From assembly GCA_023409435.1 (NCBI GenBank), contig JAEYHP010000087.1, forward strand, positions 12,961 to 76,960: a DNA stretch of 64,000 nt, read 5' to 3'. The position numbers and the translations under genes are program-made. This DNA comes from Bacillota bacterium (GTDB lineage Bacteria > Bacillota > Clostridia > Christensenellales > CAG-138). Under the pieces are notes generated by a model. That model was given only the letters and a program-made list of their open reading frames with translations, was not told where the DNA came from and did no database searches. Positions 29,383-55,747 of the stretch are shown here, in pieces. Each line of letters begins with the position of its first letter. The stretch's first letter is position 1.

Positions 29383-29387
29383 GTTCC

Positions 29388-29978
29388 TCATTCCAAAATC
29401 CCCTTCGTGGACGGAATCTCATCCGCGTGATCTTTGTCAACAGCGGTCGCCTGCCTCAGTGCGCGGCCTAATCCTTTAAACGCGGCCTCTATGATATGGT
29501 GGGAATTTGTGCCCGCAAGCTGCTTCACATGCAGCGTCAGGCTCATGCTGCGGCAAAAGCCCAATAAGAATTCCTCCACCAGTTCCGTATCAAATTCCCC
29601 GACCTTTTGCGTGGGGATACTTAGACCGTAACTCAAATGTGCGCGTCCGCTGATATCGAGGGCTACGAGCACAAGCGCTTCGTCCATGGGCAGCAGAAAA
29701 CTCCCGTAGCGCACGATGCCGCGCTTATCCCCCAGCGCTTCCCGGAAAGCTTGACCTAAACAGATGCCGATGTCCTCCACGGAGTGGTGGCTATCCACCA
29801 CGAGATCTCCGTTGCAGGTAACATCGAGGTCAAAGCTTCCGTGGCGGGCGAAGAGCGTGAGCATATGGTCCAGAAAACCGATGCCGGTGGAGATAACGCT
29901 TTTCCCCACGCCATCCAGATAGAGGGTCAGTGAAATATCCGTTTCCGCGGTTTTGCGGGTGATAACGCTTGTTCTCAT
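29388..29978 (-). CDS. hisB: Imidazoleglycerol-phosphate dehydratase
   Basis: 196 aa. RKTAETDISL...GIGFLDHML...DSHHSVEDIGI...NSHHIIEA. Confidence 0.93.
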   Translation of the reverse strand: MRTSVITRKTAETDISLTLYLDGVGKSVISTGIGFLDHMLTLFARHGSFDLDVTCNGDLVVDSHHSVEDIGICLGQAFREALGDKRGIVRYGSFLLPMDEALVLVALDISGRAHLSYGLSIPTQKVGEFDTELVEEFLLGFCRSMSLTLHVKQLAGTNSHHIIEAAFKGLGRALRQATAVDKDHADEIPSTKGILE

Positions 29979-32351: not shown

Positions 32352-32974
32352 TCGTTTCCCACCGCCTTTTTGAGCGCATCCGCCATGCGCGTGATTTCTT
32401 CCTGCCGGAACTGGTAGCTTCGTTTGTTCGCGATCAGCCGCGCGCTGCTAACTGCGATATGTTCAAACACCCGCAGGTTGTTTTCCTTCAACGTTTTGCC
32501 CGTCTCCACAATGTCCACAATCACGTCCGAAAGGCCGAGTAGGGGCGCAAGCTCTATGGAGCCGTTCAATTTAATGATCTCAATCTCCCGGTCGCGGCTC
32601 TGGTAGTATTTCCTGGCCATATGCGGGTATTTTGTGGCCACGCGCACCACCGCGCCGAGATCGTCCTCATATTCGTTTGGCGCGGCAACAGCCAGTTCGC
32701 ATTTGCCCAGGCCCAGGTCAAGCAGCTCATATACCTCCGGCTCTGTTTCTAAAAGAACATCCTTGCCCACCACACCGATATCCGCGGCGCCCCGTTCCAC
32801 GTAGATTGCGACGTCTGCGGGCTTGATCAAAAGATAGCGCACGCCAGAACGTTCGTCCTCAAACACCAGCTTGCGGCTTTCATCTGATAGCCCGGCACAG
32901 TCGTAGCCCAGGGAGGAAAACAGCTTGTATACGCGGTCTCCCAGTCGGCCCTTGGGCAGCGCAATGTTGATCAT
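32348..32974 (-). CDS. hisG: ATP phosphoribosyltransferase, short (HisZ-dependent) form
   Basis: 208 aa. It begins INIALPKGRL and later contains the block DIVETGKTLKENNL. It lacks the C-terminal regulatory domain. Confidence 0.92.
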   Translation of the reverse strand: MINIALPKGRLGDRVYKLFSSLGYDCAGLSDESRKLVFEDERSGVRYLLIKPADVAIYVERGAADIGVVGKDVLLETEPEVYELLDLGLGKCELAVAAPNEYEDDLGAVVRVATKYPHMARKYYQSRDREIEIIKLNGSIELAPLLGLSDVIVDIVETGKTLKENNLRVFEHIAVSSARLIANKRSYQFRQEEITRMADALKKAVGNE

Positions 32975-34095
32975 AACGCCACCTCCGCAAGCTGGGTTCC
33001 CTCTATTCGGTATACCTTTGCGTTACCTATCTCGTCGGGAAGAGCGGTCAGCGCGCAGACCCGCAGGTTCTTTTTTGTGAGTTGATCAATTGCCTGGTAG
33101 AGCGCTACTAGGTCCGTATTCTCCCCGTAAAGCAATATTGCGTCGTATTTGTTCTGCGCGGGCTGCCGGAAGTAGCGGTCGATCTCATCAAATGAGATGC
33201 CAAAGCCGATGGCCGCGAGATTTTCTTTGCCCATGCGTTTGAGCAGCAGGTCGTACCGCCCGCCGGAAAGCACCGCGCGCGGCACGCTTTTGACAAATCC
33301 GCGGAACGTCAGCCCGTTGTAATAGTTCGAATCGTTCGTGATCGAAAAATCCAGCCGCAGTGCCTGCGCGTTGCCCGCCGAGGCGAATACGCTATAGAGT
33401 GTGTCCAATTCGCTGAGTGCGTCCCGCATAGCCGCGTTGACGGCCAGCGGACATGCTTCCCTAAGCGCGCTTCCCATCGGCCCGCTCACACGGATCAACT
33501 GCTCAAGCAGGGTGATTTCTTTCGCGTCAATGCCGTATTCACGCGCGATGGAGGCTAGTTCGTGCGCGTTTTTGCCCTCCAGGCAGCGTATCAGCGCTTT
33601 TTTCGCTTCCGCGGGGGCGTCGATTGCGGAAAAGAAGCCCGTCAAAAACCCCATGTGGGAGATATCCAGCACATAGTCATTTTCGATCAGCGCAAGGCTT
33701 TTTAATGCGAGGTCTATAAGCTCGATATCCGTATACGGCGTCACAGAGCCGATGTATTCGACGCCGACCTGAAATATTTCCTTGTATTCGCGTACCTCGC
33801 GGCTTTGCCGGTAGACGCTTTCGCTGTAATAGAGCCGCTCCGGGCTTTCCGCCGTGGCGCGCGTGTTTTTGACGATGCTCATGGTGACATCGGGCTTTAG
33901 CGCCATCAGCTTGCCGTTCAAATCTGTGAACGTGATGATCTGCGCACTGCTTAAAAAATCCCGGTGGTCCACGTAAAAATCGTATTCTTCAAATTTGCCC
34001 ATGCGAAAGTTCCGGTAGCCACGGCTTTCATACAAGTTCCGCAGCAAGTACGCGGTGCGTTCGCTTTTGCGCAATGAATTCAGTTTCAGTTCCAA
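32971..34095 (-). CDS. hisZ: ATP phosphoribosyltransferase regulatory subunit (HisRS paralog)
   Basis: 374 aa with a class-II aaRS-like core. TTG start after GAAGGAG. First gene of the his operon, overlapping hisG by 4 nt. Confidence 0.85.
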   Translation of the reverse strand: MELKLNSLRKSERTAYLLRNLYESRGYRNFRMGKFEEYDFYVDHRDFLSSAQIITFTDLNGKLMALKPDVTMSIVKNTRATAESPERLYYSESVYRQSREVREYKEIFQVGVEYIGSVTPYTDIELIDLALKSLALIENDYVLDISHMGFLTGFFSAIDAPAEAKKALIRCLEGKNAHELASIAREYGIDAKEITLLEQLIRVSGPMGSALREACPLAVNAAMRDALSELDTLYSVFASAGNAQALRLDFSITNDSNYYNGLTFRGFVKSVPRAVLSGGRYDLLLKRMGKENLAAIGFGISFDEIDRYFRQPAQNKYDAILLYGENTDLVALYQAIDQLTKKNLRVCALTALPDEIGNAKVYRIEGTQLAEVAL

Positions 34096-39634: not shown

Positions 39635-40669
39635 ATGAGTTTAATGTGGCCATGTAAGGAGAGCTTTTTGACTAATAAAATACAAGCACCGACTATCAGG
39701 CGCATATGCAAGGTATCCTTAACGATAGTTCTATTCATCATCGTTAGCTTGACCCTGTTTCTGCTTGTTTTAAAAGCACATTATCAGGACTATTATGCCA
39801 ATTCAATAAGAGAATTTGAAATACCCGGACTAACCGATAATTTTGTTCCGCAGGGCCTTGAATGCATTGCGGAACATGACGCGTTTTTAATCAGCGGGTA
39901 TCTGTCCAATACCGGCGAGACGAGAATATATGTCGTAAATAAAGACGGTTCTTATCGTGGGATCAGTGTCAAATCAGCTGATGGCTCTTGCTTGAAAAGC
40001 CATGCGGGAGGCGTTAGTTCTTACGAAGAATATGTCTATGTTGCAGGTTGCGACGGATATGTCTATGTGTTATCGATCAAAGATGTCATGGGTGAGAAAT
40101 CCAAATCCGCTACAATTATTGGAGGCTTTCAAACAGATAATAATGCAACCTTTACCGCGATTAACGATGGCTATTTGTTTGTTGGCGAGTTTTATCACGG
40201 CTTGAAATACGCAACCAGTAAAACGCATCACATTACGACACTGGCAGGGGAAGAAAATAAAGCAATCATGTTTGCATTCGAGCTAAACGGTTCCAAGCCA
40301 CTCGGAGTTGAGCCTGAAGCAAGCCGCGCTTTTTCTATCGCAGGAAGAATTCAGGGGATGTGTGTGTCTGATGATAATAGGCTGATATTATCAGCGTCAA
40401 GCATCTTTGCAGGCTCTCAACTATATGTATATGATCTCCAGCCCGTGCTTGAAAAAGCAAGCGGCAATTTTACAGTGGATAACAAGGATATCCCTTTGTA
40501 TTACCTGGATGGTACAAATCTGATAGAGGAAAAAGAAATACTGCCTAAAGCGGAAGGCATCGTGTACAAAGATGGGAGAATCTATATTCTTTACGAATCG
40601 GCAGCAAACAGGTTTATGTATGGGAAACTGTTGAACGCACAATATCTGTACAGTATCGAGTCCCGCTAG
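39635..40669 (+). CDS. Hypothetical membrane-anchored protein, possibly beta-propeller-like, in an AT-rich islet
   Basis: 344 aa with one N-terminal TM segment (VSLTIVLFIIVSLTLFLLVL), followed by repeated beta-rich blocks (VYVAGCDGYVYVL, GYLFVGEFYHG, RLILSASS, GRIYILYES). An alternative TTG start at 39668 follows AAGGAGAG. Confidence 0.6.
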   Translation: MSLMWPCKESFLTNKIQAPTIRRICKVSLTIVLFIIVSLTLFLLVLKAHYQDYYANSIREFEIPGLTDNFVPQGLECIAEHDAFLISGYLSNTGETRIYVVNKDGSYRGISVKSADGSCLKSHAGGVSSYEEYVYVAGCDGYVYVLSIKDVMGEKSKSATIIGGFQTDNNATFTAINDGYLFVGEFYHGLKYATSKTHHITTLAGEENKAIMFAFELNGSKPLGVEPEASRAFSIAGRIQGMCVSDDNRLILSASSIFAGSQLYVYDLQPVLEKASGNFTVDNKDIPLYYLDGTNLIEEKEILPKAEGIVYKDGRIYILYESAANRFMYGKLLNAQYLYSIESR

Positions 40670-40702: not shown

Positions 40703-40736
40703 CAAAACAAAAGGCCGCAGCTAACGCTGATGGCCT
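40703..40736 (-). terminator. Probable terminator downstream of carB-dapF
   Basis: On the minus strand, AGGCCAUCAGC-GUUA-GCUGCGGCCU followed by UUUUGUUUUG. It lies 72 nt from the stop. Confidence 0.4.
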
Positions 40737-40807
40737 ATTGTTACATCCCAAGTCAATCGCTTTAACTTGCAAAGGTCTATTGATTCTTCTTGGAAAATTC
40801 CTGTATA

Positions 40808-43800
40808 TCAGTACTCCATATCCCCTTCGTACACCAAGCTTGCGTTACCCGTCAGATACACTGCTTCCCCGGTATACTTCACCACGAGGTCTCCGCCCAA
40901 TAGCTTTACGGTGATGTCCGCGTTCCTGTCGCAATGCCCGTTTTCCACCGCCGCCACAACTGCGGCGCAGGCGCCGGTGCCGCAGGCCCAGGTTTCGCCG
41001 TTGCCGCGCTCCCATACGCGCATTTTGAGCGTACGGCGGTTGACCACCCGCACAAACTCGGTATTGATGCGTTCCGGAAACGCGGATGCGTGCTCAAACT
41101 GGGGGCCGACGCGGCTGATATCGATCGCGTCCACCCGCTCGCAGAACACCACGCAATGCGGGTTGCCCACGTTCACCAGCGTAATGTTCCAGGACTTGCC
41201 TGCCACATGGAAGGGTGCGTCCACCACGCGCTCCCCGGGGAGTTGCGCCGGAATGTCGTTGGGGTGGAGGGAGGCTTTGCCCATATCCACCTCCACGGAG
41301 CGCACCTTCCCATCGAACAGATACAGCTTCAATTGCCGGACGCCGCCGGATGTTTCGATGGACAGGCGGTCTTTTTTTACAATGCCCTGGTCGTATAATA
41401 GCTTTCCTACGCAGCGGATGGAGTTGCCCGCCATCCTGCCTTCGCTGCCGTCCTGGTTGAACATGCGGATCTTCGCGTCCGCCACGGCGGAGTTTTCGAT
41501 GAGCGTCAGTCCTTCGCCGCCTATACCGAAGTGCCGGTCCGAATGCCGTATGGCGAGCGATTCCGGGCAGCTGAGGCTATTGTCCCGATTATCGAGCACA
41601 ATGCAGTCGTTGCCGGTCCCCTGCATCTTGTAAAAATGCAGCTTCTGCCGGGAAGCGCGCAGGTGGTTGATATCCACTAGCTCCGTGTTGCGCTCATTGA
41701 AGCGGCTCGCGATGATGGAGGCAAGCGCGTTCGCGGTATCGAGCGAGGTTAAGACCGCCACCCCAAGCTGCAGCGCGCGCCGGTGCAGGCGGATATAATC
41801 CTGTACCTCCGCTTTTTCACCGTTGCCGGTGAACACGATATAGCTGAGCTTTCCGCTTTCCAATAAGTCCAGTATGCCGTTGTCCACGCAGAGTGGGTTC
41901 ACGCGCTCCACGTCGATGCCCAAGCGCTCGATATCCCGCGCCGTGCCGGGTGTGGCGTAGAGTTGTATGGAAAGGTCGTTGAGCGTCTTTGCGAGCGGCA
42001 ATATTTCAAACCGGTCCTGCTTGTTCATGCTGATAAACACGCCGCCGCGCCGCTCATAAGCGGAGGAAGGGATGCGGAAGCCCGCGGAAAGCAGCCCCTT
42101 GTAAAGCGCTTCCTCCAATGTCTTTCCTACGCCCAGCACCTCGCCGGTGGATTTCATTTCCGGCCCCAATGCAGCGTTCACATCGTTGAGCTTTTCAAAC
42201 GAGAATACCGGCACCTTCACGGCTACATACGGCGGGGTCTTGTAGAGCCCGGTGCCGTATCCGAGGTCCTTTAAGCAGTAATCCACCATCACCTTGGTCG
42301 CAAGCTCCACCATGGGCACGCCCGTCACCTTGCTGATGTAAGGGATGGTGCGGGAGGCGCGGGGGTTGACCTCTATCACGTACAGCTCGTTGTGGTAAAT
42401 GAGGTACTGGATGTTCACAAGCCCCTTGGTGCCTAAAGCGAGCGCCAGCTTTTCCGAGCAGTCTATGATGGTCGCCAGCATGGTGTCGCTGACGTTGTAG
42501 GGCGGGTACACCGCGATAGAGTCGCCGGAATGCACGCCCGCGCGCTCGATGTGCTGCATGATACCGGGGATCAGCACGTCCCGCCCGTCCGAAATGACGT
42601 CCACCTCCAGTTCCGTGCCCATCATGTATTTGTCCACCAGCACCGGGCTGTCGATGCCCTGCGCCAATATAATGGACATGTACGCGCGCACGTCCTCCTC
42701 CGCGTAAGCGATCGTCATGTTCTGCCCGCCGATGACATAGGAAGGCCGCACCAGCACGGGGTAGCCGAGCCGCTCCGCCGCACAGAGTGCCTCCCCCATG
42801 GTGGTGACGCCGATGCCCGCCGGCCGCTTAAACCGGAAACGCTCCAAGAGCGCGTCGAACCGTTCGCGATCCTCGGCAGTGTCGATGCTTTCAGCGCTCG
42901 TGCCCAGTATGGGAATTTTCCGCTCGGAAAGGAAGCGCGTCAGTTTGATGGCCGTCTGCCCGCCAAACGCCACGACGACGCCGATGGGCTGTTCTACCTC
43001 TATGACATGCAGCACGTCCTCCTCCGTCAGCGGCTCAAAATAGAGCCGGTCGGCGGTGGAAAAATCCGTGGATACAGTCTCCGGGTTGTTGTTGATGAGC
43101 GTTACCTCGTAGCCCAAAGCGCGCAGCGTGCGCACGCAGTGGACGGAGGAGTAGTCGAACTCGATCCCCTGGCCGATACGTATAGGCCCCGAGCCCAGCA
43201 CGATGATGCGCGGTTTTTCCCCGCGCACAATCGCGCGGGATTCGCACATATCGTCGTATGTGGAGTAAAAGTAGGGGGTCCTTGCGTCGAACTCCGCGCC
43301 GCAGGTGTCCACCATTTTGTATACCGCGTTGCGGTGCTCCGGCAGCGGATGTCCCGTGAGCCGTAAGAGCGCCTTGTCCGTGTACCCGAGCCGCTTGGCG
43401 GCAAGATATGTTTCCGCGTCCAGCGGTTTTTCTGCTGCGGCAAGCTCAAAATCCGCGAGCTTCTTGAGCTTGTATAAAAACCAGCGGTCTATCTTCGTGA
43501 CCTCGAAAATCTCGTCCACCGGAACGCCTTCTTTGAGCGCGGCGAACACGGTAAACAGGCGCTGATCGTCCGCGATTTTGAGCCGCGCCCGGATATCGGT
43601 TCCCGCAAGGCTCGGGAGGTTTAACGTATCCAGCGAAATCTCCGCGCCGCGCACCGCCTTCATGATGGCCATTTCGAAGGAAGGGGCAATCGCCATGACC
43701 TCGCCCGTGGCCTTCATCTGGGTACCTAAGCGGCGGCTGGCGTGCACGAACTTGTCGAACGGCCACTTGGGCACCTTCAATACCACATAATCGAGCGTCG

Positions 43801-44842
43801 GCGCAAAGCAGGCGCATGTCTTGCCCGTGATGTCGTTTTGAATTTCGTCGAGCGTATACCCTAACGCAATTTTCGTCGCCACCTTGGCGATCGGGTAGCC
43901 CGTCGCCTTGCTCGCCAAAGCCGAGGAGCGGGACACGCGCGGGTTGACCTCGATCACCGCGTACTCAAAGCTGTTTGGATTCAGGGCGAACTGGCAGTTG
44001 CAGCCGCCTTCGATCTTGAGCGCGCGAATAATGGAAAGCGACGCGCTCCGAAGCATCTGGTATTCCTTATCGGAAAGCGTGACGGCGGGGGCGATTACGA
44101 TGCTGTCCCCCGTGTGCACGCCCACCGGGTCGAAATTCTCCATGGAACAGACGGCGATGCAGTTGTCGTTGCCGTCCCGCATGATTTCAAATTCGATCTC
44201 CTTCCAGCCGTAGATGTACTTTTCCACCAATATTTGAGTAATGGGGGAGAGCAGCAGGCCGTTCGCGGCGATTGTCTTTAATCCCTCTTCCGCGTAGGCC
44301 ACACCGCCGCCAGCACCCCCCAGCGTGAACGCCGGGCGGATGATAATGGGGTAGCCGATGCGCTCGGCGATGTTAAGGGCGGTATCGACGTCGTTTGCGA
44401 TTTCGGAGGGGATGACGGGCTGGCCGATACTTTGCATGGTATCCTTAAACAGCTGCCGGTCTTCCGCTTTGTCTATCGCCTCCGCGTTGGTGCCCAGCAG
44501 TTTTATGCCCATGCGGGTCAAGTACCCTTCTTTATGCAGCTGCATGGCAAGCGTCAGCCCCGTCTGTCCGCCCAAAGAGGCTAAAAGGCTATCCGGCCGC
44601 TCCTTTTCAATGATGCGCTTTAACGTTGTGACGGTGAGCGGCTCCAAATAGATTTCATCCGCCAGAGTCTTGTCCGTCATGATGGTTGCGGGGTTGGAGT
44701 TGACGAGCACCACGTTTACGCCCGCATCCTTTAATACACTGCACGCCTGCGCGCCCGCGTAATCGAACTCGGCCGCCTGGCCGATCACGATCGGCCCCGA
44801 GCCGATCATCAGCACTTTTTTGATGCTTTCGTTTAAAGGCAT
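40808..44842 (-). CDS. carB: Carbamoyl-phosphate synthase large subunit fused in frame to a DapF-like (diaminopimelate epimerase fold) C-terminal domain
   Basis: A single 1344-aa ORF. Residues 1 to about 1067 form a complete CarB: two ATP-grasp halves, the oligomerisation region and the MGS-like allosteric domain. The last 277 aa (40811-41641) carry DapF blocks: FYKMQGTGND, FNQDGSEGRMAGNSIRC, VGNPHCVVF and ERGNGETWACGTGACA. Confidence 0.9.
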   Translation of the reverse strand: MPLNESIKKVLMIGSGPIVIGQAAEFDYAGAQACSVLKDAGVNVVLVNSNPATIMTDKTLADEIYLEPLTVTTLKRIIEKERPDSLLASLGGQTGLTLAMQLHKEGYLTRMGIKLLGTNAEAIDKAEDRQLFKDTMQSIGQPVIPSEIANDVDTALNIAERIGYPIIIRPAFTLGGAGGGVAYAEEGLKTIAANGLLLSPITQILVEKYIYGWKEIEFEIMRDGNDNCIAVCSMENFDPVGVHTGDSIVIAPAVTLSDKEYQMLRSASLSIIRALKIEGGCNCQFALNPNSFEYAVIEVNPRVSRSSALASKATGYPIAKVATKIALGYTLDEIQNDITGKTCACFAPTLDYVVLKVPKWPFDKFVHASRRLGTQMKATGEVMAIAPSFEMAIMKAVRGAEISLDTLNLPSLAGTDIRARLKIADDQRLFTVFAALKEGVPVDEIFEVTKIDRWFLYKLKKLADFELAAAEKPLDAETYLAAKRLGYTDKALLRLTGHPLPEHRNAVYKMVDTCGAEFDARTPYFYSTYDDMCESRAIVRGEKPRIIVLGSGPIRIGQGIEFDYSSVHCVRTLRALGYEVTLINNNPETVSTDFSTADRLYFEPLTEEDVLHVIEVEQPIGVVVAFGGQTAIKLTRFLSERKIPILGTSAESIDTAEDRERFDALLERFRFKRPAGIGVTTMGEALCAAERLGYPVLVRPSYVIGGQNMTIAYAEEDVRAYMSIILAQGIDSPVLVDKYMMGTELEVDVISDGRDVLIPGIMQHIERAGVHSGDSIAVYPPYNVSDTMLATIIDCSEKLALALGTKGLVNIQYLIYHNELYVIEVNPRASRTIPYISKVTGVPMVELATKVMVDYCLKDLGYGTGLYKTPPYVAVKVPVFSFEKLNDVNAALGPEMKSTGEVLGVGKTLEEALYKGLLSAGFRIPSSAYERRGGVFISMNKQDRFEILPLAKTLNDLSIQLYATPGTARDIERLGIDVERVNPLCVDNGILDLLESGKLSYIVFTGNGEKAEVQDYIRLHRRALQLGVAVLTSLDTANALASIIASRFNERNTELVDINHLRASRQKLHFYKMQGTGNDCIVLDNRDNSLSCPESLAIRHSDRHFGIGGEGLTLIENSAVADAKIRMFNQDGSEGRMAGNSIRCVGKLLYDQGIVKKDRLSIETSGGVRQLKLYLFDGKVRSVEVDMGKASLHPNDIPAQLPGERVVDAPFHVAGKSWNITLVNVGNPHCVVFCERVDAIDISRVGPQFEHASAFPERINTEFVRVVNRRTLKMRVWERGNGETWACGTGACAAVVAAVENGHCDRNADITVKLLGGDLVVKYTGEAVYLTGNASLVYEGDMEY

Positions 44843-45912
44843 ACGTTCCCTCCCATCAGGTCAAAGAAGCGGTCGAACAAAAACCCCGTATCCTGCGGGC
44901 CTGCGCAGGCCTCCGGGTGGAACTGCACGGAGAACGCCCGCATGTCCGGGTAATCCACGCCCTCGCAGGTCAGGTCGTTCGCGTTATGCAGCCTGAGCTT
45001 CGCGCCGCAGCGCGCCAGGCTTTCGCTGATTACGGCGTAGCCGTGGTTCTGGCTGGTGATGTATACGCGTCCGGTCTCCACATCCCGCACGGGCTGGTTT
45101 GCACCGCGGTGGCCGTACTTGAGCTTTTCAGTCTTTCCTCCGCTTGCAAGCGCCAATAGCTGGTGCCCCAGGCAGATGCCGAATATCGGCACGCGTCCCA
45201 GCAGCTTTTTGATTTCGCGGATGACGCCCACATTTTCCGCCGGGTCGCCGGGGCCGTTAGATAACATCACGCCGTCGGGCCTGTGGGAAAGCAGCGTCTC
45301 CGCTGCGGTATCGTAGGGCAGCACCAGCACTTCGCAGCCCCGCTTGCACAGTTCCCGGATGATGTTGCGTTTCAATCCGCAATCGAGTAACGCCACGCGG
45401 AAGCGCTTTTCCCCCGTAGCGGGGTAGAGCCGGGGGCCGGTGCCGCTGACGGAAGCGACGGCGTTTTCAATTACAAACTCCGAAAGCCCGTCAAAGCTCT
45501 CTTTTGTCACCTCGTCCACGATGCGGGCGTTCATCACGCCGGTCTCACGTATGATTTTTGTGATCTCCCGCGTGTCTACGCCATATAGACCGGGGATACC
45601 CTGTTCCTTCAAAAACGCGTTTAACGTGCCGCCCGCACGGAAATTAGAAGGTTCCTCGCACCATTCCCGCACGATATAGGCCGTGACAAAGCTTTTGCGG
45701 CTTTCCATATCCGCCGGGATTATGCCGTAGTTGCCAATGAGCGGGAATGTCTGCAGCACGATCTGCCCATAGTAGCTCGGGTCGCTGAGCGTTTCCACAT
45801 AGCCGCACATGCCGGTGGTAAACACCAGCTCGCCGGTGGGGGAGCCTGTGGCGCCAAAGCGTTTTCCCACAAACGTTTGGCCGTTGGATAACACAAGGGT
45901 AGCAGTCTGCAT
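44833..45912 (-). CDS. carA: Carbamoyl-phosphate synthase small (glutaminase) subunit
   Basis: 359 aa. GICLGHQ catalytic Cys block and a later FHPEA block. Overlaps carB by 10 nt. Confidence 0.92.
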   Translation of the reverse strand: MQTATLVLSNGQTFVGKRFGATGSPTGELVFTTGMCGYVETLSDPSYYGQIVLQTFPLIGNYGIIPADMESRKSFVTAYIVREWCEEPSNFRAGGTLNAFLKEQGIPGLYGVDTREITKIIRETGVMNARIVDEVTKESFDGLSEFVIENAVASVSGTGPRLYPATGEKRFRVALLDCGLKRNIIRELCKRGCEVLVLPYDTAAETLLSHRPDGVMLSNGPGDPAENVGVIREIKKLLGRVPIFGICLGHQLLALASGGKTEKLKYGHRGANQPVRDVETGRVYITSQNHGYAVISESLARCGAKLRLHNANDLTCEGVDYPDMRAFSVQFHPEACAGPQDTGFLFDRFFDLMGGNVCL

Positions 45913-46040: not shown

Positions 46041-46952
46041 TTACTCCGCTTTCCCAAGGAGCTTGACGAGCACGGCTTTCTGCGCGTGCAGCCGGTTTTC
46101 CGCCTCGTCGAATATCTCATTGGCGTGGGCCTCAAAAACGTCCGTTGTGATCTCCTCTTCCCGGTGCGCCGGGAGGCAATGGAGCACAATGGCGTCGGGT
46201 TTTGCCGCTCCCATCACAGCGCCGTTGATTTGGTAGCCAACAAACGCCGCCTTGCGTTTCTCCGCCTCGCCCTCCTGGCCCATGGAGGCCCAAACGTCGG
46301 TGTATAGGACGTCGGCGTTCTTCGCCGCGGCGAGCACGTTCGTGGTGCAGGTGAACGTGCCGTTCGCTTTTGCCCATTTCATGATGTCTGCATCGGGCTG
46401 GTAATCCACAGGGCAGGCGATGGCCACTTCCATGCCCATTTTGACACCGCCCACGATAAGCGAGTTTGCCATGTTGTTGCCGTCGCCGATAAAGGCCATC
46501 TTCAGGCTCTTGAACGTGCCCTTGTATTCGCGTACCGTCATCAGGTCCGCAAGCACCTGGCAGGGGTGTGCGTAATCGGTCAGGCCGTTGATGACGGGGA
46601 TGGAGCCGTACTTTGCCAAATCTTCCACTTCCTGCTGCTTATACGTGCGGATCATGATGCCGTCCAAATACCGGGAAAGCACCCTTGCCGTATCCTGCAC
46701 GGGTTCGCCGCGGCCGATCTGCAGGTCGTTTGCGGAAAGGAACAGGGCGCTGCCGCCCAGCTGATACATGCCCACCTCAAAGGAAACGCGCGTGCGCGTG
46801 GAGGATTTCTGGAATATCATGCCCAAGGTCTTGCCCGCAAGGTAGTGGTGGGCGATGCCGTTTTTGCTGTCGTACTTCAATTGGTCGGCAAGGTTTAAAA
46901 TATCCGTGATTTCCTGCGGGGTTAGGTCGGAAAGTTTGAGCAAATGCTTCAT
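46041..46952 (-). CDS. argF: Ornithine carbamoyltransferase
   Basis: 303 aa with the STRTR, HPCQ and HCLP motifs. Confidence 0.92.
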   Translation of the reverse strand: MKHLLKLSDLTPQEITDILNLADQLKYDSKNGIAHHYLAGKTLGMIFQKSSTRTRVSFEVGMYQLGGSALFLSANDLQIGRGEPVQDTARVLSRYLDGIMIRTYKQQEVEDLAKYGSIPVINGLTDYAHPCQVLADLMTVREYKGTFKSLKMAFIGDGNNMANSLIVGGVKMGMEVAIACPVDYQPDADIMKWAKANGTFTCTTNVLAAAKNADVLYTDVWASMGQEGEAEKRKAAFVGYQINGAVMGAAKPDAIVLHCLPAHREEEITTDVFEAHANEIFDEAENRLHAQKAVLVKLLGKAE

Positions 46953-48115
46953 TGTTCGATCTCCTCCTTCAGTATGGCGATGGCTTCCTTGAGCAGCGGC
47001 GTCGGGATATTGAGCGGCGGCAAAAGCCGGATTTTATTTTTTGCGGTCAGCACGATCACCCCGCGGGCTAAACAACCAAGCAAAATATCCTTTGCGGGCC
47101 GTTCCGTTTCGATGCCCAGCATCAGGCCGAGGCCGCTGACGGAAATCACACCTTTTAATGGACCCAGCGCTTCCTTCATATACGCGCTCTTTTCCTGCAC
47201 TTCCTGCATCAGCTCGTCCGTGAGGCGGGAGAGAACAGAGATTGCTCCCGCCGCGCACACCGGGTTGCCGCCGAACGTGGAACCGTGGCTGCCAGTGGTG
47301 AGCGTAAACATGGTCTTTTCCCCGAACAGCGTTGCGCCCATGGGCAAGCCCCCCGCCAGGCCTTTTGCGGTAGATACGATATCCGGCTTGATGCCGTAGT
47401 GCATATAGCAGTACAGTTCTCCCGTGCGGCCGTTGCCCGTCTGGACCTCGTCTATCACCAGCAGCACGTCCCGCTTTTCGCAAATCGCCGCGACCTCGCG
47501 CACATACTCCGGCTCCAGCACGTTTACGCCGCCCTCGCCCTGTATGAGCTCCATCATCACGGCGCAGACGTCGTCCGCCTCAAGCGCAAGCTTTATGGCG
47601 TCGATGTCGTTTGCCGCTACATGCACAAATCCCGGCGTAAACGGGCCGAAATCCTTATGGAAGCTTTCCTGCCCCGTGGCGGAAAGCGTGGTGAGTGTGC
47701 GGCCGTGGAAGCTGTTCCACAGCGTTATGATATTTGGCCGGGCGACCGCGCCGTATTTGTCGCTTGCGTACTTGCGTGCGGCTTTTATGGCGCACTCGTT
47801 CGCTTCCGCGCCCGAGTTGGAGAAGAACACCTTCTTCATCCCCGTCCGCTCACACAGCATTTGCCCCAGCTCGGACTGCGGCTCGGTGTAATAGTAGTTG
47901 GACACATGCTGCAGCTTATCCACCTGCGTTTTTACCGCGTCCGCCCATGCGTCGTCCGCGATGCCGAACGCGTTTACCGCAATGCCGCCCCCGAGGTCGA
48001 TGTATCGTTTGCCCGCCTCATCATACAGCTCCGCGCCCTTGCCGCTGATGAACGCGACGTCCTGCCGGCCGTATGTCCCCGCGATAAACGCTTGATCCAG
48101 TTCTTTGATGGTCAT
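46949..48115 (-). CDS. argD: Acetylornithine aminotransferase
   Basis: Start ATG 48115 (MTIKELDQAF) after AAGGGGG. Class-III aminotransferase blocks DEVQTGNGRTG and STAKGLAGG. The upstream 16 codons of the ORF track translate a repeat element. Confidence 0.9.
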   Translation of the reverse strand: MTIKELDQAFIAGTYGRQDVAFISGKGAELYDEAGKRYIDLGGGIAVNAFGIADDAWADAVKTQVDKLQHVSNYYYTEPQSELGQMLCERTGMKKVFFSNSGAEANECAIKAARKYASDKYGAVARPNIITLWNSFHGRTLTTLSATGQESFHKDFGPFTPGFVHVAANDIDAIKLALEADDVCAVMMELIQGEGGVNVLEPEYVREVAAICEKRDVLLVIDEVQTGNGRTGELYCYMHYGIKPDIVSTAKGLAGGLPMGATLFGEKTMFTLTTGSHGSTFGGNPVCAAGAISVLSRLTDELMQEVQEKSAYMKEALGPLKGVISVSGLGLMLGIETERPAKDILLGCLARGVIVLTAKNKIRLLPPLNIPTPLLKEAIAILKEEIEQ

Positions 48116-48140
48116 TGTGTATGCCCCCTTACCGAAAAGG

Positions 48141-48198
48141 TACGTTGGAGGCTCTGCCTCCAAACCTCTGCCAAAGGGACACGTCCCTTTGGAATCCC
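48141..48198 (-). repeat. Bipartite intergenic hairpin repeat, copy B (inverted relative to copy A), inside the arg operon
   Basis: The + strand has GGAGGC-TCT-GCCTCC (48147-48161) and CCAAAGGGAC-AC-GTCCCTTTGG (48171-48192). The reverse complement aligns with 3907-3960. Confidence 0.6.
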
Positions 48199-48219
48199 AA
48201 CGCTTCTTTAGCCGGTTGC

Positions 48220-49074
48220 TTACTTAAACATCGTCCCTACGCCTTCGTCCGTCAGCACTTCAATCAGTATGGAGTGCGGCACGCGTCCGTCTATGATGAA
48301 CACCTTCTTCACCCCGCGCCGGATCGCGTCGATGCAGCAGTCCACCTTGGGGATCATGCCGCCGGAGATAATACCCTCCCGTACAAGCTGCGGCGCTTCA
48401 CTCACCGGGATTTCGGAAATGAGCGTAGAAGGGTCGTTCATATCCCGCAGGATGCCGTGCGTATCCGTCATGGAAATAAAGCTTTCCGCTCTTAAGCATC
48501 CCGCGATGCGGGCGGCCGCGGTATCCGCGTTGATGTTGAAAGTGTTACCCTTTTCGTCGCATCCCACGGTGGAGATGACGGGGATATAGCCCTTTTCCAA
48601 TAAATCGTGTATGGGCTGCGTGTTAACGCTTACGATCTCGCCCACATAGCCCAGCTTTTCGTCGAATGGCTTTGCGTTGAGGATTCGGCAGTCCATGCCC
48701 GAAAGGCCGATCGCCTTGCCGCCGATGCTGTCGATGAGCGCAACCAGATCCTTGTTGATTTTGCCCGCGAGCACCATCTGCACGATCTCCGCCGTTTCCT
48801 TATCCGTCACGCGCAAGCCGCCGACAAACTCGCTTTTTTTGCCCACGCGCTTTAGCATATCGGAAATCTCCGGCCCGCCGCCGCGGATAAGCACCACCTT
48901 GATTCCGATGAGGGAGAGCAGCACGATATCGCCCATCACGGCCCGTTTCAATTCGTCGCTCACCATGGCGTTGCCGCCGTATTTGACCACGATGATCTTG
49001 TTGTTGTATTTCTGGATATAGGGCAGCGCCTGTATGAGCACCTCTGCCCGCTGGGCATTTGTAATGTCCTTCAT
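48220..49074 (-). CDS. argB: Acetylglutamate kinase
   Basis: 284 aa. The N-terminal block is VVKYGGNAM. The overall pattern is that of an AAK-family protein. Confidence 0.92.
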   Translation of the reverse strand: MKDITNAQRAEVLIQALPYIQKYNNKIIVVKYGGNAMVSDELKRAVMGDIVLLSLIGIKVVLIRGGGPEISDMLKRVGKKSEFVGGLRVTDKETAEIVQMVLAGKINKDLVALIDSIGGKAIGLSGMDCRILNAKPFDEKLGYVGEIVSVNTQPIHDLLEKGYIPVISTVGCDEKGNTFNINADTAAARIAGCLRAESFISMTDTHGILRDMNDPSTLISEIPVSEAPQLVREGIISGGMIPKVDCCIDAIRRGVKKVFIIDGRVPHSILIEVLTDEGVGTMFK

Positions 49075-49090
49075 GACTTACCCTTGCTCC

Positions 49091-50305
49091 TTATGAACGG
49101 TAGTCGCCGTTGATTTTCACGTAATCATACGTGAGGTCGCAGCCCCAGGCCGTGGCGGTACACTCCCCGCTGTTGAGGTGGATATAGATGTCGATTTCAT
49201 CCTGCAGCAGGATATTTTTTGCGATCTCTTCCGAAAACGGCACGCCCGCGCCGTCGTTGCACACGTCGATATATCCAACACTCGAAGCAAAGGAAACGTC
49301 CACTTTGTTGATATCCACATCCGCGCCCGCGTAGCCTATGGCGCACAGCACCCGGCCCCAGTTGGCGTCCGCGCCGAACATGGCGGCCTTAAACAGGCTG
49401 GAGCAGACGACGGATTTTGCGACCGTCCGCGCCGTAACGGTATCGTTTGCACCCGAAACCTTGCAGGTCAGGAGCTTCGTCGCGCCCTCGCCGTCCTTCG
49501 CGATGGCGCGGCAGAGGTGGGAGGTGATTTCTTTCAACGCCGCGCAGAACGCGGTATAGTCTTCGTTTTCGCTTATGATCGTGTCGTTGCCCGCCAGCCC
49601 ATTTGCAAGCACCGCCACCATGTCGTTGGTGGAAGTATCGCCGTCCACGCTCACCATGTTGAAGGTGTCGAGGATATCGCTGGAAAGCGCTTTTTGCAGC
49701 ATGGCGAGGGAGATGGCGGCGTCCGTCGTAATAAATACCAGCATGGTCGCCATGTTGGGGTGGATCATGCCCGAGCCCTTGGCGATCCCGCCAATACGGC
49801 ACTCTTTTCCGGCGACCGTGAAGGATACCGCAGTCTCCTTTACGGCGAGGTCGGTGGTCATAATGGCGCGAGCCGCTTCGAGACTATTCTCATACCCCAG
49901 CGCATCCACAAGCGCGCCCATGCCGCTTTCAATGGGACCGATGGGGAGCGGCTGGCCGATCACGCCCGTGGAGGCCACGATAATATCGGTGGTATCAAAC
50001 CCCAGCGATGCGCCCGCAAGTTCGCACATTTTCTTCGCCACAAACGGACCGTCCGCGTTACAGGTGTTCGCATTGCCGGAGTTGCAGAGTATCGCCTGCG
50101 CCACGCCGTTTTGTATGTGCTCTTTCGTCACGAGTATCGGCGCGCCCTTGACTAAATTCTGCGTGTATACGGCGGCGGCGCTCGCCGGAACGTCGCTGAC
50201 GATCAGCGCCAGGTCCTTTAACGCCTTATTCTTTCTTAATCCGCAATGGATGCCTGAAGCCTTGAAGCCTTTTGCGGCGCACACGCCGCCGGGTATTGCG
50301 TGCAT
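49091..50305 (-). CDS. argJ: Bifunctional ornithine acetyltransferase / N-acetylglutamate synthase
   Basis: 404 aa with the autoproteolysis site context PNMATMLVFITTDA. AAGGAGAG RBS. Confidence 0.92.
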   Translation of the reverse strand: MHAIPGGVCAAKGFKASGIHCGLRKNKALKDLALIVSDVPASAAAVYTQNLVKGAPILVTKEHIQNGVAQAILCNSGNANTCNADGPFVAKKMCELAGASLGFDTTDIIVASTGVIGQPLPIGPIESGMGALVDALGYENSLEAARAIMTTDLAVKETAVSFTVAGKECRIGGIAKGSGMIHPNMATMLVFITTDAAISLAMLQKALSSDILDTFNMVSVDGDTSTNDMVAVLANGLAGNDTIISENEDYTAFCAALKEITSHLCRAIAKDGEGATKLLTCKVSGANDTVTARTVAKSVVCSSLFKAAMFGADANWGRVLCAIGYAGADVDINKVDVSFASSVGYIDVCNDGAGVPFSEEIAKNILLQDEIDIYIHLNSGECTATAWGCDLTYDYVKINGDYRS

Positions 50306-50331
50306 AATTCTCTCCTTATGGTCCGAGGTAC

Positions 50332-50362
50332 GTTTCTTTTCTTTCCACGAAAGAAAAGAAAC
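50332..50362. repeat. Polypyrimidine/polypurine hairpin in the argC-argJ spacer
   Basis: GTTTCTTTTCTTTC-CAC-GAAAGAAAAGAAAC, a perfect 14-bp stem. The arm motif TTCTTTTCTTT / AAAGAAAAGAA resembles 29353-29382. Confidence 0.6.
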
Positions 50363-50395
50363 AAAAGAAAGCGGATTTCATTATCCCAATGATGC

Positions 50396-51331
50396 CTATA
50401 CGGAGAGCCCTTCCGTCTCTTCCCGCCCCAGCATCAGGTTCATGCATTGTATGGCGGCGCCCGAAGCGCCTTTACCCAAGTTGTCGTACCGGGCAAGCAA
50501 TGTCATGCGCTCCCCGCTTCCGGCCACCATCAGTTCCATGGTGTCCTTGCCTGCAAGGGCATTGGCTGCAAGCATCTGGTTTTCCGCTTCATAGGGAAGG
50601 ACGGTTATCAGTTTGCTGCCCTCATAGTGCTGCGCATAAATCTCGCTGATATCTTCCGGTCGCAGTCGCTTCTCGAGCATGCTTTGATGCAGAGGTACAT
50701 TCACCAGCATGCCCGCATAAAAATCCGCAACCACGGGAGTGAATACCGGCGGGAACGCAGTGCCCGCGTACTTTTGCATTTCGGGCAGGTGCTTGTGCGC
50801 CTGCAGCGTGGCGTATGCCCGGGGGGCGTCGAACGCCGCATCCCGCGTGCTGTCTTCGTATTCCGATATCATCTTTTTCCCGCCGCCGCTGTAGCCGGTG
50901 AGGGAGAAGCAGGCAAGCGGCGCTTCCGGGGAAAGGATACCGGCGGAAACTAGCGGATAAATGAGCGCGATAAACCCGCTTGCGTGGCAGCCCGGCACGG
51001 CCACGCGGGAACCGAAGACAACGCCCGCCCGGTGCGCTTGCGAAAGCTCCGGGAACCCGTACCGCCAGCCGTTCGCCGTGCGGTGGGCGGTGGAAGCGTC
51101 TATGATGCGTACGCGGCCGCCCTCGGAGAGCGCAACGGATTCGCGTGCCGCATCGTCCGGCAGGCACAAAAACGCGATATCGGCCTCGTGGAGCAGTTCC
51201 TTGCGCGCGTCCGGGTCCTTGCGCTTTTCTTCATCCAGGGTGAGGAGCGCAATGCCGTTTCGCGCGCTTAGCCGCTCGGATATGCGAAGGCCTGTCGTGC
51301 CTTCCCTGCCGTCGATGAATACCTGATGCAT
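50396..51331 (-). CDS. argC: N-acetyl-gamma-glutamyl-phosphate reductase (short, about 310-aa type)
   Basis: 311 aa. It contains VAVPGCHASG, with the catalytic Cys. First gene of argCJBDF. Confidence 0.9.
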   Translation of the reverse strand: MHQVFIDGREGTTGLRISERLSARNGIALLTLDEEKRKDPDARKELLHEADIAFLCLPDDAARESVALSEGGRVRIIDASTAHRTANGWRYGFPELSQAHRAGVVFGSRVAVPGCHASGFIALIYPLVSAGILSPEAPLACFSLTGYSGGGKKMISEYEDSTRDAAFDAPRAYATLQAHKHLPEMQKYAGTAFPPVFTPVVADFYAGMLVNVPLHQSMLEKRLRPEDISEIYAQHYEGSKLITVLPYEAENQMLAANALAGKDTMELMVAGSGERMTLLARYDNLGKGASGAAIQCMNLMLGREETEGLSV

Positions 51332-55711: not shown

Positions 55712-55747
55712 ACCGTTCTTCCCCTTATAAGAATTTAAACCGTCCGC

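What the first reader, a model, noticed from the sequence alone, without database searches (positions are those of the whole stretch)
40808..41660. carB is fused in frame to a DapF-like domain that lacks the first catalytic cysteine
**Seen in the sequence**
- A single uninterrupted 1344-aa ORF contains a complete CarB, ending ...NERNTELVDINHLRASRQK, followed directly by 277 aa with the diaminopimelate-epimerase fold.
- The junction reads AAG CTG CAT TTT TAC AAG ATG CAG (K-L-H-F-Y-K-M-Q).
- Aligned by eye with E. coli and H. influenzae DapF (MQFSKMHGLGNDF...), the canonical Met1 position is a CTG Leu codon.
- No stop, SD sequence or alternative-frame stop occurs near the junction. This looks like a real fusion, not two adjacent genes or a single indel.
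- The motif that normally carries the catalytic Cys73 (FNADGSExxxCGNGxRC) reads FNQDGSEGRMAGNSIRC here, a Cys-to-Ala change with GNG becoming GNS.
- The second catalytic Cys block is intact (ERGNGETWACGTGACA). GNDF is GNDC.

**Established knowledge**
- DapF uses a two-cysteine acid/base pair. Single-Cys relatives in the wider racemase superfamily tend to have other chemistry or to be non-catalytic.
- E. coli ArgD also serves the DAP pathway, so a link between arginine and DAP/lysine metabolism has precedent.

**Inference**
The appended domain may be a neofunctionalised enzyme, or a ligand-sensing regulatory module on an arginine-cluster CPSase.
Basis: partly seen in the sequence, partly recalled or inferred. 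Interest (0 to 1): 0.75.

Follow-up and report, generated by a model that had tools for sequence, protein, structure and literature searches.

The report
CarB fused to one-cysteine DapF domain
The last gene of an arginine operon encodes a complete carbamoyl-phosphate synthetase large subunit fused end to end to a diaminopimelate-epimerase domain that keeps its whole substrate pocket but has lost one of its two catalytic cysteines. The feature is real, conserved and undescribed, it recurs across gut Clostridia, and its job is still unknown.

Summary
ORF 40808-44842 (-) encodes 1344 aa: a full CarB followed, with essentially no linker, by a 277-aa DapF domain (TIGR00652 267 bits, cutoff 115). 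The Cys73-equivalent is Ala (GCG, 41429-41431). Cys217 and all DAP-contacting residues are intact.

It is not an assembly artefact. Hundreds of in-frame relatives exist, including isolates, and NCBI names them only "carbamoyl-phosphate synthase large subunit".

Comparison of 81 loci gave these results:
- Stand-alone dapF (both Cys) usually sits directly upstream of dapL.
- A grade of carB::dapF fusions keeps both Cys and often keeps dapL downstream.
- Cys73 was then lost at least six times (to A, G, S or F), almost only in fused genes.
- No fused gene without Cys73 has dapL directly downstream (0 of 41). Many close a complete argCJBDF-carA operon, as here.

The domain is under purifying selection (dN/dS 0.07-0.21).

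My best reading (about 50%) is an epimerase-dead, ligand-binding accessory module of CPSase. The rivals are a still-active sole DapF and a new one-base enzyme. The decisive test could not be run: whether the same genome holds a canonical dapF.

The parts
40808..44842 (-). Fused carB::dapF-like ORF of 1344 aa plus stop codon
41642..44842 (-). CarB part (aa 1-1067). It has two ATP-grasp synthetase halves, the oligomerisation domain and the MGS-like allosteric domain.
   Evidence: NF003671 1418 bits and TIGR01369 1378 bits. Pfam domains. Alignment to E. coli CarB reaches near its C-terminus.
40811..41641 (-). DapF-like domain (aa 1068-1344, 277 aa)
   Evidence: TIGR00652 267 bits. PDB DapF hits down to E=9e-67. 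AF2 model at pLDDT 88 superposes on ligand-bound DapF 9MRO with TM 0.89.
41639..41662 (-). Junction AAG CTG CAT TTT TAC AAG ATG CAG (K-L-H-F-Y-K-M-Q). There is essentially no linker.
41429..41431 (-). GCG Ala codon at the Cys73-equivalent column (domain residue 71)
   Evidence: Changing it to TGC/TGT needs at least two base changes.
40982..40984 (-). TGC, the retained Cys217-equivalent (domain residue 220)
41567..41569 (-). TGC Cys25 of the clade-specific C-P-E-S motif. It is the N-cap of helix alpha1.
41603..41605 (-). TGC Cys13 (GNDC). It replaces the Tyr/Phe of GNDY/GNDF and is specific to this lineage.
44833..45912 (-). carA (CPSase small subunit). It overlaps the carB start.
46041..51331 (-). 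argC-argJ-argB-argD-argF, upstream in the same direction
   Evidence: The same order is found in many related loci.
40706..40742 (-). GC-rich hairpin followed by UUUUGUUUUG, about 70-100 nt after the stop. It is a likely operon terminator.
   Evidence: RNA fold -20.2 kcal/mol, z = -2.65. The simple consensus scan did not flag it.

Best explanation
The appended domain descends from a bona fide bifunctional CarB-DapF fusion and has stopped being a two-base diaminopimelate epimerase. It still folds as DapF and keeps the complete DAP-type pocket. I propose that it now works as a ligand-binding accessory module of the carbamoyl-phosphate synthetase, either regulatory or structural. It would bind DAP or a closely related L-amino-acid ligand without turning it over. 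Through the zero-length link to CarB's C-terminal allosteric domain, and probably through DapF-type dimerisation, it could couple ligand-induced open/closed motion to CPSase activity or assembly. Under this reading the organism's real DAP epimerisation is done elsewhere: by a stand-alone dapF next to dapL, by Ddh, or by DapF2.

**Shown**
- The fusion and the loss of Cys73.
- Retention of the pocket and purifying selection.
- Loss of the dapL neighbourhood and gain of the arg-operon position.

**Inferred**
- Ligand binding without catalysis.
- Coupling to CPSase.
- Existence of a second epimerase in the genome.
For: **1. One catalytic Cys is gone; the rest of the pocket is untouched.**
- Ala occupies the Cys73 column.
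- In 175 fused relatives that lack this Cys, the other pocket residues are 96-100% conserved: N64, G74, N75, N157, H159, N190, E208, R209, C217, G218 and T/S219.
- Changes cluster on the Cys73 side only. N11 becomes D in 56 of 175 against 0 of 157 two-Cys sequences. G76 becomes S, A, C or N.

**2. DapF without its catalytic cysteines is inactive.**
- E. coli DapF(C73A,C217A) does not epimerise DAP, yet it still binds and activates RppH (PMC4227774). This is a precedent for a non-catalytic regulatory role of this fold.

**3. The domain is not decaying.**
- dN/dS is 0.07-0.21 in pairs that lack Cys73, against 0.04-0.17 for the CarB part of the same genes.

**4. The gene context has shifted.**
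- DapL (TIGR03542, 491 bits) lies within 2.5 kb downstream of 8 of 19 fused two-Cys genes and 5 of 8 stand-alone dapF genes.
- It lies there in 0 of 41 fused genes without Cys73 (Fisher p = 3e-5, not corrected for phylogeny).
- Genes without Cys73 instead often end a full argCJBDF-carA operon.

**5. The loss is repeated and asymmetric.**
- There were at least 6 independent losses of Cys73 in the fused lineage. Cys217 was lost only in L064b.
- Among sequences with both columns readable, two-Cys sequences are 132 of about 144 of the 50%-identity representatives (the exceptions are almost all fused or partial-fused; one stand-alone has Ser73) and all 120 stand-alone relatives of L065.

**6. One genome shows both genes side by side.**
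- In the Acutalibacter MAG L064, carB is fused to a fully degenerate DapF-like domain.
- A canonical stand-alone dapF lies 670 bp downstream, and dapL follows further on.

**7. Structure.**
- The linker is essentially absent.
- The AF2 model of the allosteric plus DapF-like region folds confidently. It is closest to ligand-bound DapF.
Against: - No ligand, binding or regulatory effect was or could be measured here.
- I could not show that this genome, or any genome of the main Ala clade, has another DAP epimerase. The 64-kb window and all flanks of 10 kb on each side contain none.
- Near-perfect conservation of the pocket, including Cys217, is also what a still-working enzyme would show. Where a canonical dapF is demonstrably present (L064), the fused pocket has decayed. 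That argues the Ala-clade pocket is needed for something specific, possibly catalysis.
- In the AF2 model the junction has only pLDDT 63-73 and pTM is 0.68. No fixed docking onto the allosteric domain is predicted.
- This particular protein has Cys at position 13, two residues after the substrate-contacting N11 on the same strand. It might supply a thiol on the Cys73 side.
Confidence: 0.5

Rival explanations
1. The fused domain is still the cell's working, possibly only, diaminopimelate epimerase. The missing Cys73 base would be replaced by another group: Cys13 in this lineage, Cys76 in some relatives, Cys25 of the CPES motif, or an ordered water. The fusion would then simply co-express DapF with the arginine genes.
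For: - Every DAP-contacting residue and Cys217 are invariant, and selection is purifying.
- No second dapF was found in the window or in any flank of 10 kb on each side of Ala-clade loci.
- Two-Cys fusions followed by dapL are evidently real DapF enzymes.
- A curated reconstruction lists [Eubacterium] siraeum as having DapL but 'missing DapF' (PMC9026213 Table S2). That would fit a DapF hidden inside a protein annotated as CarB, although I did not check which variant that species carries.
- Cys25 appears almost only where Cys73 is absent: 149 of 175 against 0 of 157.
Against: - Two-base catalysis needs a proton donor or acceptor on both faces. The double mutant C73A/C217A is inactive (PMC4227774). 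From my own recollection of the DapF mutagenesis literature, the single C73A is also inactive as an epimerase.
- The candidate substitutes are not general. Cys13 occurs in 3 of 175 and Cys76 in 31 of 175. Several Ala/Gly lineages (the Treponema group, L003/5/7, L026/41, L055/57/70/80) have no Cys25.
- Cys25 caps helix alpha1. By the strand-loop-helix topology it lies at the end of the N-domain away from the cleft. This is inferred and no distance was measured.
- Cys73 is replaced by A, G, S and F in independent lineages. That pattern looks like loss of a role, not relocation of one.
- The dapL neighbourhood is lost in all 41 loci without Cys73.
Confidence: 0.2
2. The domain is a neofunctionalised one-base enzyme. 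With only Cys217 it would catalyse a reaction that needs a single acid/base on a DAP-like substrate, such as elimination, stereoselective protonation or decarboxylation, or a 1,3-proton shift. This would parallel what happened in other racemase-type folds.
For: - The loss is asymmetric: always Cys73 and almost never Cys217, in at least 6 independent events.
- The residue that replaces it is small (Ala or Gly).
- Remodelling is confined to the Cys73 side (N11D, G76 to S/A/C/N, S211N).
- There are precedents from established knowledge. trans-3-Hydroxy-L-proline dehydratase is a proline-racemase homologue with one Cys replaced, and it appears among the structural neighbours. Arylmalonate decarboxylase has Gly74/Cys188 in the Asp/Glu-racemase fold.
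Against: - The substrate-recognition residues are unchanged from DapF. A new substrate would normally leave a mark there.
- No partner enzyme or pathway context suggests a new DAP-derived metabolite. The neighbours are ordinary arginine genes.
- With DAP itself, a lone Cys217 can only exchange the alpha-proton of the D-centre.
Confidence: 0.2
3. The feature is an artefact or a recently broken gene: a mis-assembly or frameshift joining two genes, or a decaying dapF remnant with no function.
For: MAG-derived relatives do show breaks. L001 is split into 878 + 449 aa and L064 has an N-gap. One fused domain (L064b) really is degenerate.
Against: - The same in-frame, linker-less junction occurs in more than 70 independent loci. 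These include the isolates Ruminococcus sp. FC2018, Ruminococcaceae bacterium AM07-15 and Oscillospiraceae bacterium CM74B_53B.
- All 120 full-length relatives listed also carry it, including 96%- and 93%-identical 1344-aa proteins from other assemblies.
- dN/dS is 0.07-0.21.
- Ala-to-Cys needs at least 2 nucleotide changes.
Confidence: 0.03

Closest known systems
Canonical diaminopimelate epimerase DapF (TIGR00652; e.g. PDB 9MRO, 2OTN, 3EJX, 1GQZ)
   Same: - Full-length homology at about 45-50% identity to the Firmicute/cyanobacterial type.
- The same two-lobed fold (TM 0.83-0.89).
- The same DAP-contacting residues, and Cys217 is present.
   Different: - Ala replaces the Cys73 base.
- The domain is fused to the C-terminus of CarB instead of standing alone.
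- It is not next to dapL, and it is embedded in an arginine operon.
Two-Cys CarB-DapF fusions of Ruminococcus/Oscillospirales (e.g. WP_081777235.1, Ruminococcus sp. FC2018). These are database entries named only 'carbamoyl-phosphate synthase large subunit'. I found no paper on them in the library searched.
   Same: - The same linker-less junction and architecture, with carA upstream.
- They form the grade from which the window's clade emerges in the neighbour-joining tree.
   Different: - They keep both catalytic Cys and often keep dapL immediately downstream, so they look like real bifunctional enzymes.
- The window's clade has lost Cys73 and the dapL neighbour. It has gained the CPES motif and the arg-operon position.
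E. coli DapF as a catalysis-independent activator of RppH (PMC4227774; PDB 6D13)
   Same: A DapF fold acts as a protein partner or regulator with its catalytic cysteines removed. 6D13 is among the structural matches.
   Different: - There the same protein is also the working epimerase, and the partner is a separate Nudix hydrolase.
- Here the Cys is lost in nature and the partner would be the covalently attached CPSase. No interaction has been shown.
One-Cys offshoots of cofactor-independent racemase folds: trans-3-hydroxy-L-proline dehydratase (proline-racemase family; PDB 6R76, 4K7G) and arylmalonate decarboxylase (Gly74/Cys188, Asp/Glu-racemase fold)
   Same: One member of the Cys/Cys pair has been replaced in nature by a non-thiol residue while the other is kept.
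   Different: - These are different families with only 13-14% identity. Arylmalonate decarboxylase has a different fold.
- In them the substrate pocket also changed. Here it did not.
- The comparison rests on recalled knowledge and was not tested.
DapF homologues with other substrates: histidine racemase HisR/CntK (PMC11602996), O-ureidoserine racemase DcsC (PDB 7VDY), 2,4-diaminobutyrate racemase PddB (PMC8225329)
   Same: They are members of the DapF family recruited to a new role.
   Different: All of them keep both catalytic cysteines and changed their binding residues instead. The window's domain does the opposite.

Membership tests
DapF, diaminopimelate epimerase (TIGR00652 / PF01678) | Full-length match above the curated equivalog cutoff, with two DAP_epimerase repeats | tested here: met
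   267 bits against a cutoff of 114.65, covering profile positions 2-268 of 270. PF01678 matches twice.
DapF, diaminopimelate epimerase (TIGR00652 / PF01678) | DapF fold: two pseudo-symmetric lobes, each wrapped round a central helix | tested here: met
   AF2 pLDDT 88. Foldseek TM 0.89 to 9MRO and 0.83-0.87 to 2OTN, 3EJX and 1GQZ.
DapF, diaminopimelate epimerase (TIGR00652 / PF01678) | DAP-contacting residues N11, N64, G74, N75, N157, N190, E208, R209, G218, S/T219 (H. influenzae numbering) | tested here: met
   All are present in the window protein and 96-100% conserved in the clade, apart from N11 (D in about a third of relatives). The residue list itself comes from my own knowledge of the DapF structures.
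DapF, diaminopimelate epimerase (TIGR00652 / PF01678) | Catalytic thiol/thiolate pair Cys73 + Cys217 | tested here: not met
   Ala at the Cys73 column; Cys217 present.
DapF, diaminopimelate epimerase (TIGR00652 / PF01678) | Genomic association with the DAP/lysine pathway (dapL next door in this group of Clostridia) | tested here: not met
   No dapL lies within 2.5 kb downstream in the 41 fused loci without Cys73, and the window has no dapL match at all. This compares with 8 of 19 fused two-Cys and 5 of 8 stand-alone loci.
DapF, diaminopimelate epimerase (TIGR00652 / PF01678) | LL-DAP to meso-DAP epimerase activity | not testable with these tools
   Needs an enzyme assay or complementation.
CarB, glutamine-dependent CPSase large subunit (NF003671 / TIGR01369) | Complete architecture above the equivalog cutoff, with carA adjacent | tested here: met
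   1418 bits (cutoff 599) and 1378 bits (cutoff 1027). carA at 44833-45912 overlaps the carB start.
Bifunctional CarB-DapF fusion (two-Cys type; an unnamed database family) | In-frame, linker-less CarB C-terminus joined to the DapF N-terminus | tested here: met
Bifunctional CarB-DapF fusion (two-Cys type; an unnamed database family) | DapF half competent for catalysis (both Cys) | tested here: not met
Pseudoenzyme or allosteric ligand-sensing domain | Binds a ligand without turnover and changes the activity of the attached enzyme | not testable with these tools
   Only indirect support: loss of a catalytic residue with the pocket retained and purifying selection.
One-Cys enzymes derived from racemase folds (T3LHyp dehydratase type) | Second Cys replaced, together with an altered substrate pocket and a pathway context for the new reaction | tested here: inconclusive
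   The replacement is present. The pocket is unaltered and no new pathway context is seen.

The most novel reading that the evidence does not exclude
The DapF-like domain is a new kind of allosteric sensor on carbamoyl-phosphate synthetase. It would be a former enzyme whose open-to-closed clamp motion on binding DAP, or lysine/ornithine-type ligands in the N11D subclade, is transmitted through a zero-length link and DapF-type dimerisation to the CarB allosteric domain. Arginine and pyrimidine precursor supply would then be tied to cell-wall and lysine precursor status in many gut Clostridia.
Probability: 0.25. Interest if true: 0.8.

Novelty: new variant of a known kind. Interest (0 to 1): 0.62.

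Why it matters
- **An uncharacterised part of a central enzyme.** CPSase is a textbook allosteric enzyme. A conserved extra domain on its allosteric end is an unstudied piece of central nitrogen metabolism. It occurs in abundant gut and rumen Clostridia; one 90%-identity cluster alone holds 1391 sequences.
- **A natural series for studying enzyme-to-non-enzyme change.** The family runs from stand-alone enzyme, to bifunctional fusion, to one-Cys domain (lost at least six times), to a fully degenerate domain. It shows how an enzyme turns into something else while fused to a partner.
- **A practical annotation problem.** Pipelines name the fused proteins only "CarB". They also name some plain 280-aa DapF proteins "carB". 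This can create false "missing DapF" gaps or false DapF calls in metabolic reconstructions and auxotrophy predictions. The one-Cys form should not be counted as DapF without evidence.

Tried and rejected
**Second dapF or dapL close by**
- tblastn of E. coli DapF, the domain itself and DapL against the 64-kb window found nothing.
- The same search over flanks of 10 kb on each side of 81 loci found a second copy only in L064.

**Genome-level co-occurrence**
- I then tried to recognise a canonical DapF from the same contig by matching 'longest_contig' values. I compared the 120 full-length fused hits with the 120 stand-alone DapF hits. No values matched, so the attempt was inconclusive.
- Curated per-genome tables (PMC9026213 Table S2) show separate DapF-DapL pairs and window-like arg clusters in C. 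leptum, E. coprostanoligenes, Anaerotruncus, Intestinimonas and Pseudoflavonifractor. The tables do not list carB, so I could not tell whether those species carry the fusion. I did not use this as evidence.

**Exact look-up**
- An exact look-up of the window protein's contig failed.

**Is Cys25 of the CPES motif a relocated catalytic thiol?**
- No model coordinates are available, so I could argue only from topology that it sits far from the cleft. I rejected it as the general answer because several lineages without Cys73 also lack it.

**Is L064 a pseudogene?**
- The apparent carB frameshift in L064 is a run of N, not a real frameshift. I rejected that reading.

**Literature**
- Searches for the fusion, for natural DapF variants lacking a catalytic Cys and for a DapF pseudoenzyme found nothing relevant.

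**Consensus scans**
- The promoter/terminator scan gave nothing useful at the junction.
Full report
**1.

- Window 40808..44842 (-) is one uninterrupted ORF of 1344 codons.
- Residues 1-1047 match the CarB equivalog models over their full length: NF003671 at 1418 bits and TIGR01369 at 1378 bits. Every CPSase Pfam domain is present, including the C-terminal MGS-like allosteric domain.
- Residues 1068-1344 (window 40811-41641) match the DapF equivalog TIGR00652 from profile position 2 to 268 of 270, at 267 bits against a cutoff of 114.65. They also match both PF01678 repeats.
- The domain aligns end to end with solved DapF structures (9MRO E=9e-67, 3EJX, 2OTN).
- Aligned with E. coli CarB (1073 aa), the CarB part stops 3-4 residues before Leu1068. 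Leu1068 aligns with Met1 of DapF. The two proteins are joined end to end with practically no linker.
- Every alignment puts Ala (GCG, 41429-41431) where DapF has the Cys73 base. The second catalytic Cys is present (TGC, 40982-40984).
- An AF2 model of the allosteric plus DapF-like region has mean pLDDT 88. It superposes best on ligand-bound DapF (TM 0.89 to 9MRO). The junction itself is less confident (pLDDT 63-73, pTM 0.68).

**2. It is not an accident of this assembly**

- A protein search with the domain plus 40 residues of CarB tail returned 120 top hits that all carry the tail. At the Cys73 column 111 have Ala, 8 Gly and 2 Cys, counting the window's own sequence among the 121.
- A search with the full protein returned 120 full-length proteins of 1338-1355 aa, all with PF01678.
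  - These include 96%- and 93%-identical 1344-aa proteins from other assemblies.
  - One is on a 2.04-Mb contig that carries the same argC-J-B-D-F-carA-carB::dapF operon.
  - None has Cys73, and all but one have Cys217.
- A scan of one genome per GTDB species gave 80 loci. Together with L001 they hold 72 fused genes: 39 Ala, 9 Gly, 3 Ser, 1 Phe and 20 with the canonical Cys. They also hold 10 stand-alone dapF genes, all with both Cys.
- The fused genes include isolates: Ruminococcus sp. FC2018, Ruminococcaceae bacterium AM07-15 and Oscillospiraceae bacterium CM74B_53B. NCBI and UniRef call these proteins simply 'carbamoyl-phosphate synthase large subunit'.
- No NCBIfam model is specific to the fusion. 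I found no paper on it in the library searched.

**3. How it arose**

- The ORF directly downstream of the two-Cys fusion in Ruminococcus sp. FC2018 is LL-diaminopimelate aminotransferase DapL (TIGR03542, 491 bits, cutoff 365).
- DapL follows dapF within 2.5 kb in 5 of 8 stand-alone loci and in 8 of 19 two-Cys fusions. It does so in 0 of 41 fusions that lack Cys73. Fisher p = 3e-5, not corrected for shared ancestry.
- carA always precedes the fused gene. A complete argC-J-B-D-F block precedes carA in many of the non-Cys loci, as in the window, but in none of the two-Cys loci.
- In a neighbour-joining tree built with the Cys73 column masked:
  - stand-alone DapFs are basal;
  - two-Cys fusions form a grade;
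  - Cys73 is lost at least six separate times: one large Ala clade that contains the window, plus L057 (Gly), L058 (Phe), L048 (Ser), L080/L064b (Gly/Ser) and L055 (Gly).
- The simplest history is this. An ancestral carA-carB-dapF-dapL neighbourhood existed. carB and dapF fused while DapF was a normal enzyme. Later the Cys73 base was lost repeatedly, and the window's clade moved to the end of the arginine operon.
- The tree is a simple distance tree without support values. The count of loss events is approximate.

**4. What the sequence says about present function**

- The domain is under purifying selection. dN/dS is 0.07-0.21 in six pairs without Cys73, only 1.1-2.1 times the value for the CarB part of the same genes. 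Two-Cys fusions give a similar ratio, 1.7-1.8 times.
- Among 175 sequences without Cys73, the following are 96-100% conserved: N64, G74, N75, N157, H159, N190, E208, R209, C217, G218 and T/S219.
- The differences from 157 two-Cys sequences near the active site lie on the Cys73 side:
  - C73 becomes A or G;
  - N11 becomes D in 56 of 175 against 0 of 157;
  - G76 becomes S, A, C or N;
  - S211 becomes N.
- A second cluster of clade-specific residues forms a new motif, N18-x2-G21-x-I-T-C25-P-E-S28, with E49, Y107 and R198.
  - Cys25 caps helix alpha1 in the model.
  - From the strand-loop-helix topology it should lie at the end of the N-lobe away from the cleft. I could not measure this because model coordinates are not exposed.
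  - Several lineages without Cys73 have no Cys25, so it cannot be a general replacement base.
- The window protein also has Cys13 (GNDC), which occurs in only 3 of 175. It sits two residues after the substrate-contacting N11 on the same strand. This is a lineage-specific caveat.
- Locus L064 (an Acutalibacter MAG) is informative.
  - Its carB is intact apart from a run of N.
  - It is fused to a DapF-like domain whose active site is completely degenerate: N64L, C73S, G74A, N75S, H159S, E208K, C217G.
  - A canonical stand-alone dapF lies 670 bp downstream, with dapL beyond it.
  - So the appendage can be kept as a dead domain when a real DapF is present.
  - In the window's clade, by contrast, the pocket is still being selected for something.

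**5. Interpretation**

- E. coli DapF with both cysteines changed to Ala does not epimerise DAP, yet it still binds and activates RppH (PMC4227774).
- The window's domain has lost one base, kept an unchanged DAP-type pocket, left the dapL neighbourhood and remained under constraint. The reading I favour (about 0.5) is a ligand-binding, non-epimerising accessory module of CPSase.
- A plausible mechanical route is that DapF's known open/closed clamp motion and dimerisation act on the directly attached allosteric domain. That route is inference only.
- Two rivals remain open at about 0.2 each:
  - The domain is still the cell's epimerase, with a substitute base.
  - It is a one-base enzyme with new chemistry, by analogy with trans-3-hydroxyproline dehydratase or arylmalonate decarboxylase.
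- The 'still active' rival is strengthened by my failure to find any second dapF near Ala-clade genes. It is weakened by the variety of replacing residues (A, G, S, F) and by the lack of a common substitute thiol.
- An artefact or a decaying remnant is effectively excluded.

**6. What I could not do**

- The key test is whether the same genome has a canonical dapF, ddh or dapF2. It was out of reach.
- A 'same longest contig' fingerprint comparison between fused hits and stand-alone DapF hits gave no match.
- Curated tables for cultured relatives do not list carB.
- An alternative PLP-type epimerase, DapF2, exists in some Firmicutes, and E. coli delta-dapF is viable (PMC9026213; preprint 10.1101/2024.10.14.618325). 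Absence of a canonical dapF would therefore not by itself prove that the fused domain is active.

**7. Verdict**

- The feature is real, widespread and conserved, and I found no description of it.
- It is a new variant of known kinds (DapF superfamily, CarB), not a new category.
The functional suggestion is compatible with the data but unproven. The proposed ArgD/DAP link is replaced by a gene-order explanation.
- Interest is moderate to high (0.62). The family offers a clean natural series from enzyme to non-enzyme and a possible new regulatory input to CPSase. It also has immediate consequences for annotation.

Noticed in passing
Proteins P0441, P0469, P0471: Plain stand-alone two-Cys DapF proteins of 279-281 aa are named 'carbamoyl-phosphate synthase large subunit' or 'carB' by NCBI or JGI (for example Acidaminococcus sp. 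CAG:917). This looks like annotation transferred from the fused proteins. Conversely, full-length fusions are named only CarB.
   Followed up: partly
L064:2078-11283: An Acutalibacter MAG has carA, then carB fused to a fully degenerate DapF-like domain. A canonical stand-alone dapF follows (6843-7703), then two ORFs, then dapL (10099-11283). The apparent carB frameshift is a run of N at 4401-4410.
   Followed up: yes
L061, L074, L077 (Treponema sp. MAGs); L050 (Selenomonadaceae MAG); L055 (Treponema sp., Gly variant): CarB-DapF fusions without Cys73 occur in MAGs assigned outside Clostridia. The three Ala-variant Treponema MAGs (L061, L074, L077) form their own Ala subclade, with GNDF and no Cys25. 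This could be horizontal transfer or binning contamination. Treponemes typically use ornithine, not DAP, in their peptidoglycan (own knowledge).
   Followed up: no
PMC9026213 Table S2: A curated reconstruction lists [Eubacterium] siraeum DSM 15702 as a lysine prototroph with DapL but 'missing DapF'. A DapF hidden in a protein annotated as CarB could explain that gap. I did not verify this.
   Followed up: no
window 39635-40669 (+): A 344-aa ORF convergent with the fused gene has no Pfam match.
   Followed up: no
window 24293-34095 (-): There is a run of about a dozen tightly packed co-directional ORFs. By its sizes it looks like a biosynthetic operon, possibly histidine. I did not scan it.
   Followed up: no
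window 53987-60716 (-): A sugar-PTS cluster: Enzyme I-like PEP-utilising protein, PfkB kinase, a PRD/HTH/EIIA regulator and an EIIC-EIIB permease.
   Followed up: no
L082:21547-24032 (-): In the 2.04-Mb contig with the same arg-car operon, pyrI, pyrB, pyrE and pyrF lie about 7.5 kb downstream of the fused gene, and no second carAB is in view. The fused CPSase may serve both arginine and pyrimidine synthesis.
   Followed up: no
Protein P0002: Its N-terminus, MCIRDR, is the translation of a sequencing-adaptor remnant. Many 449-aa and about 501-aa 'proteins' in the first search are truncated calls of the fused gene that start at internal Met codons.
   Followed up: partly
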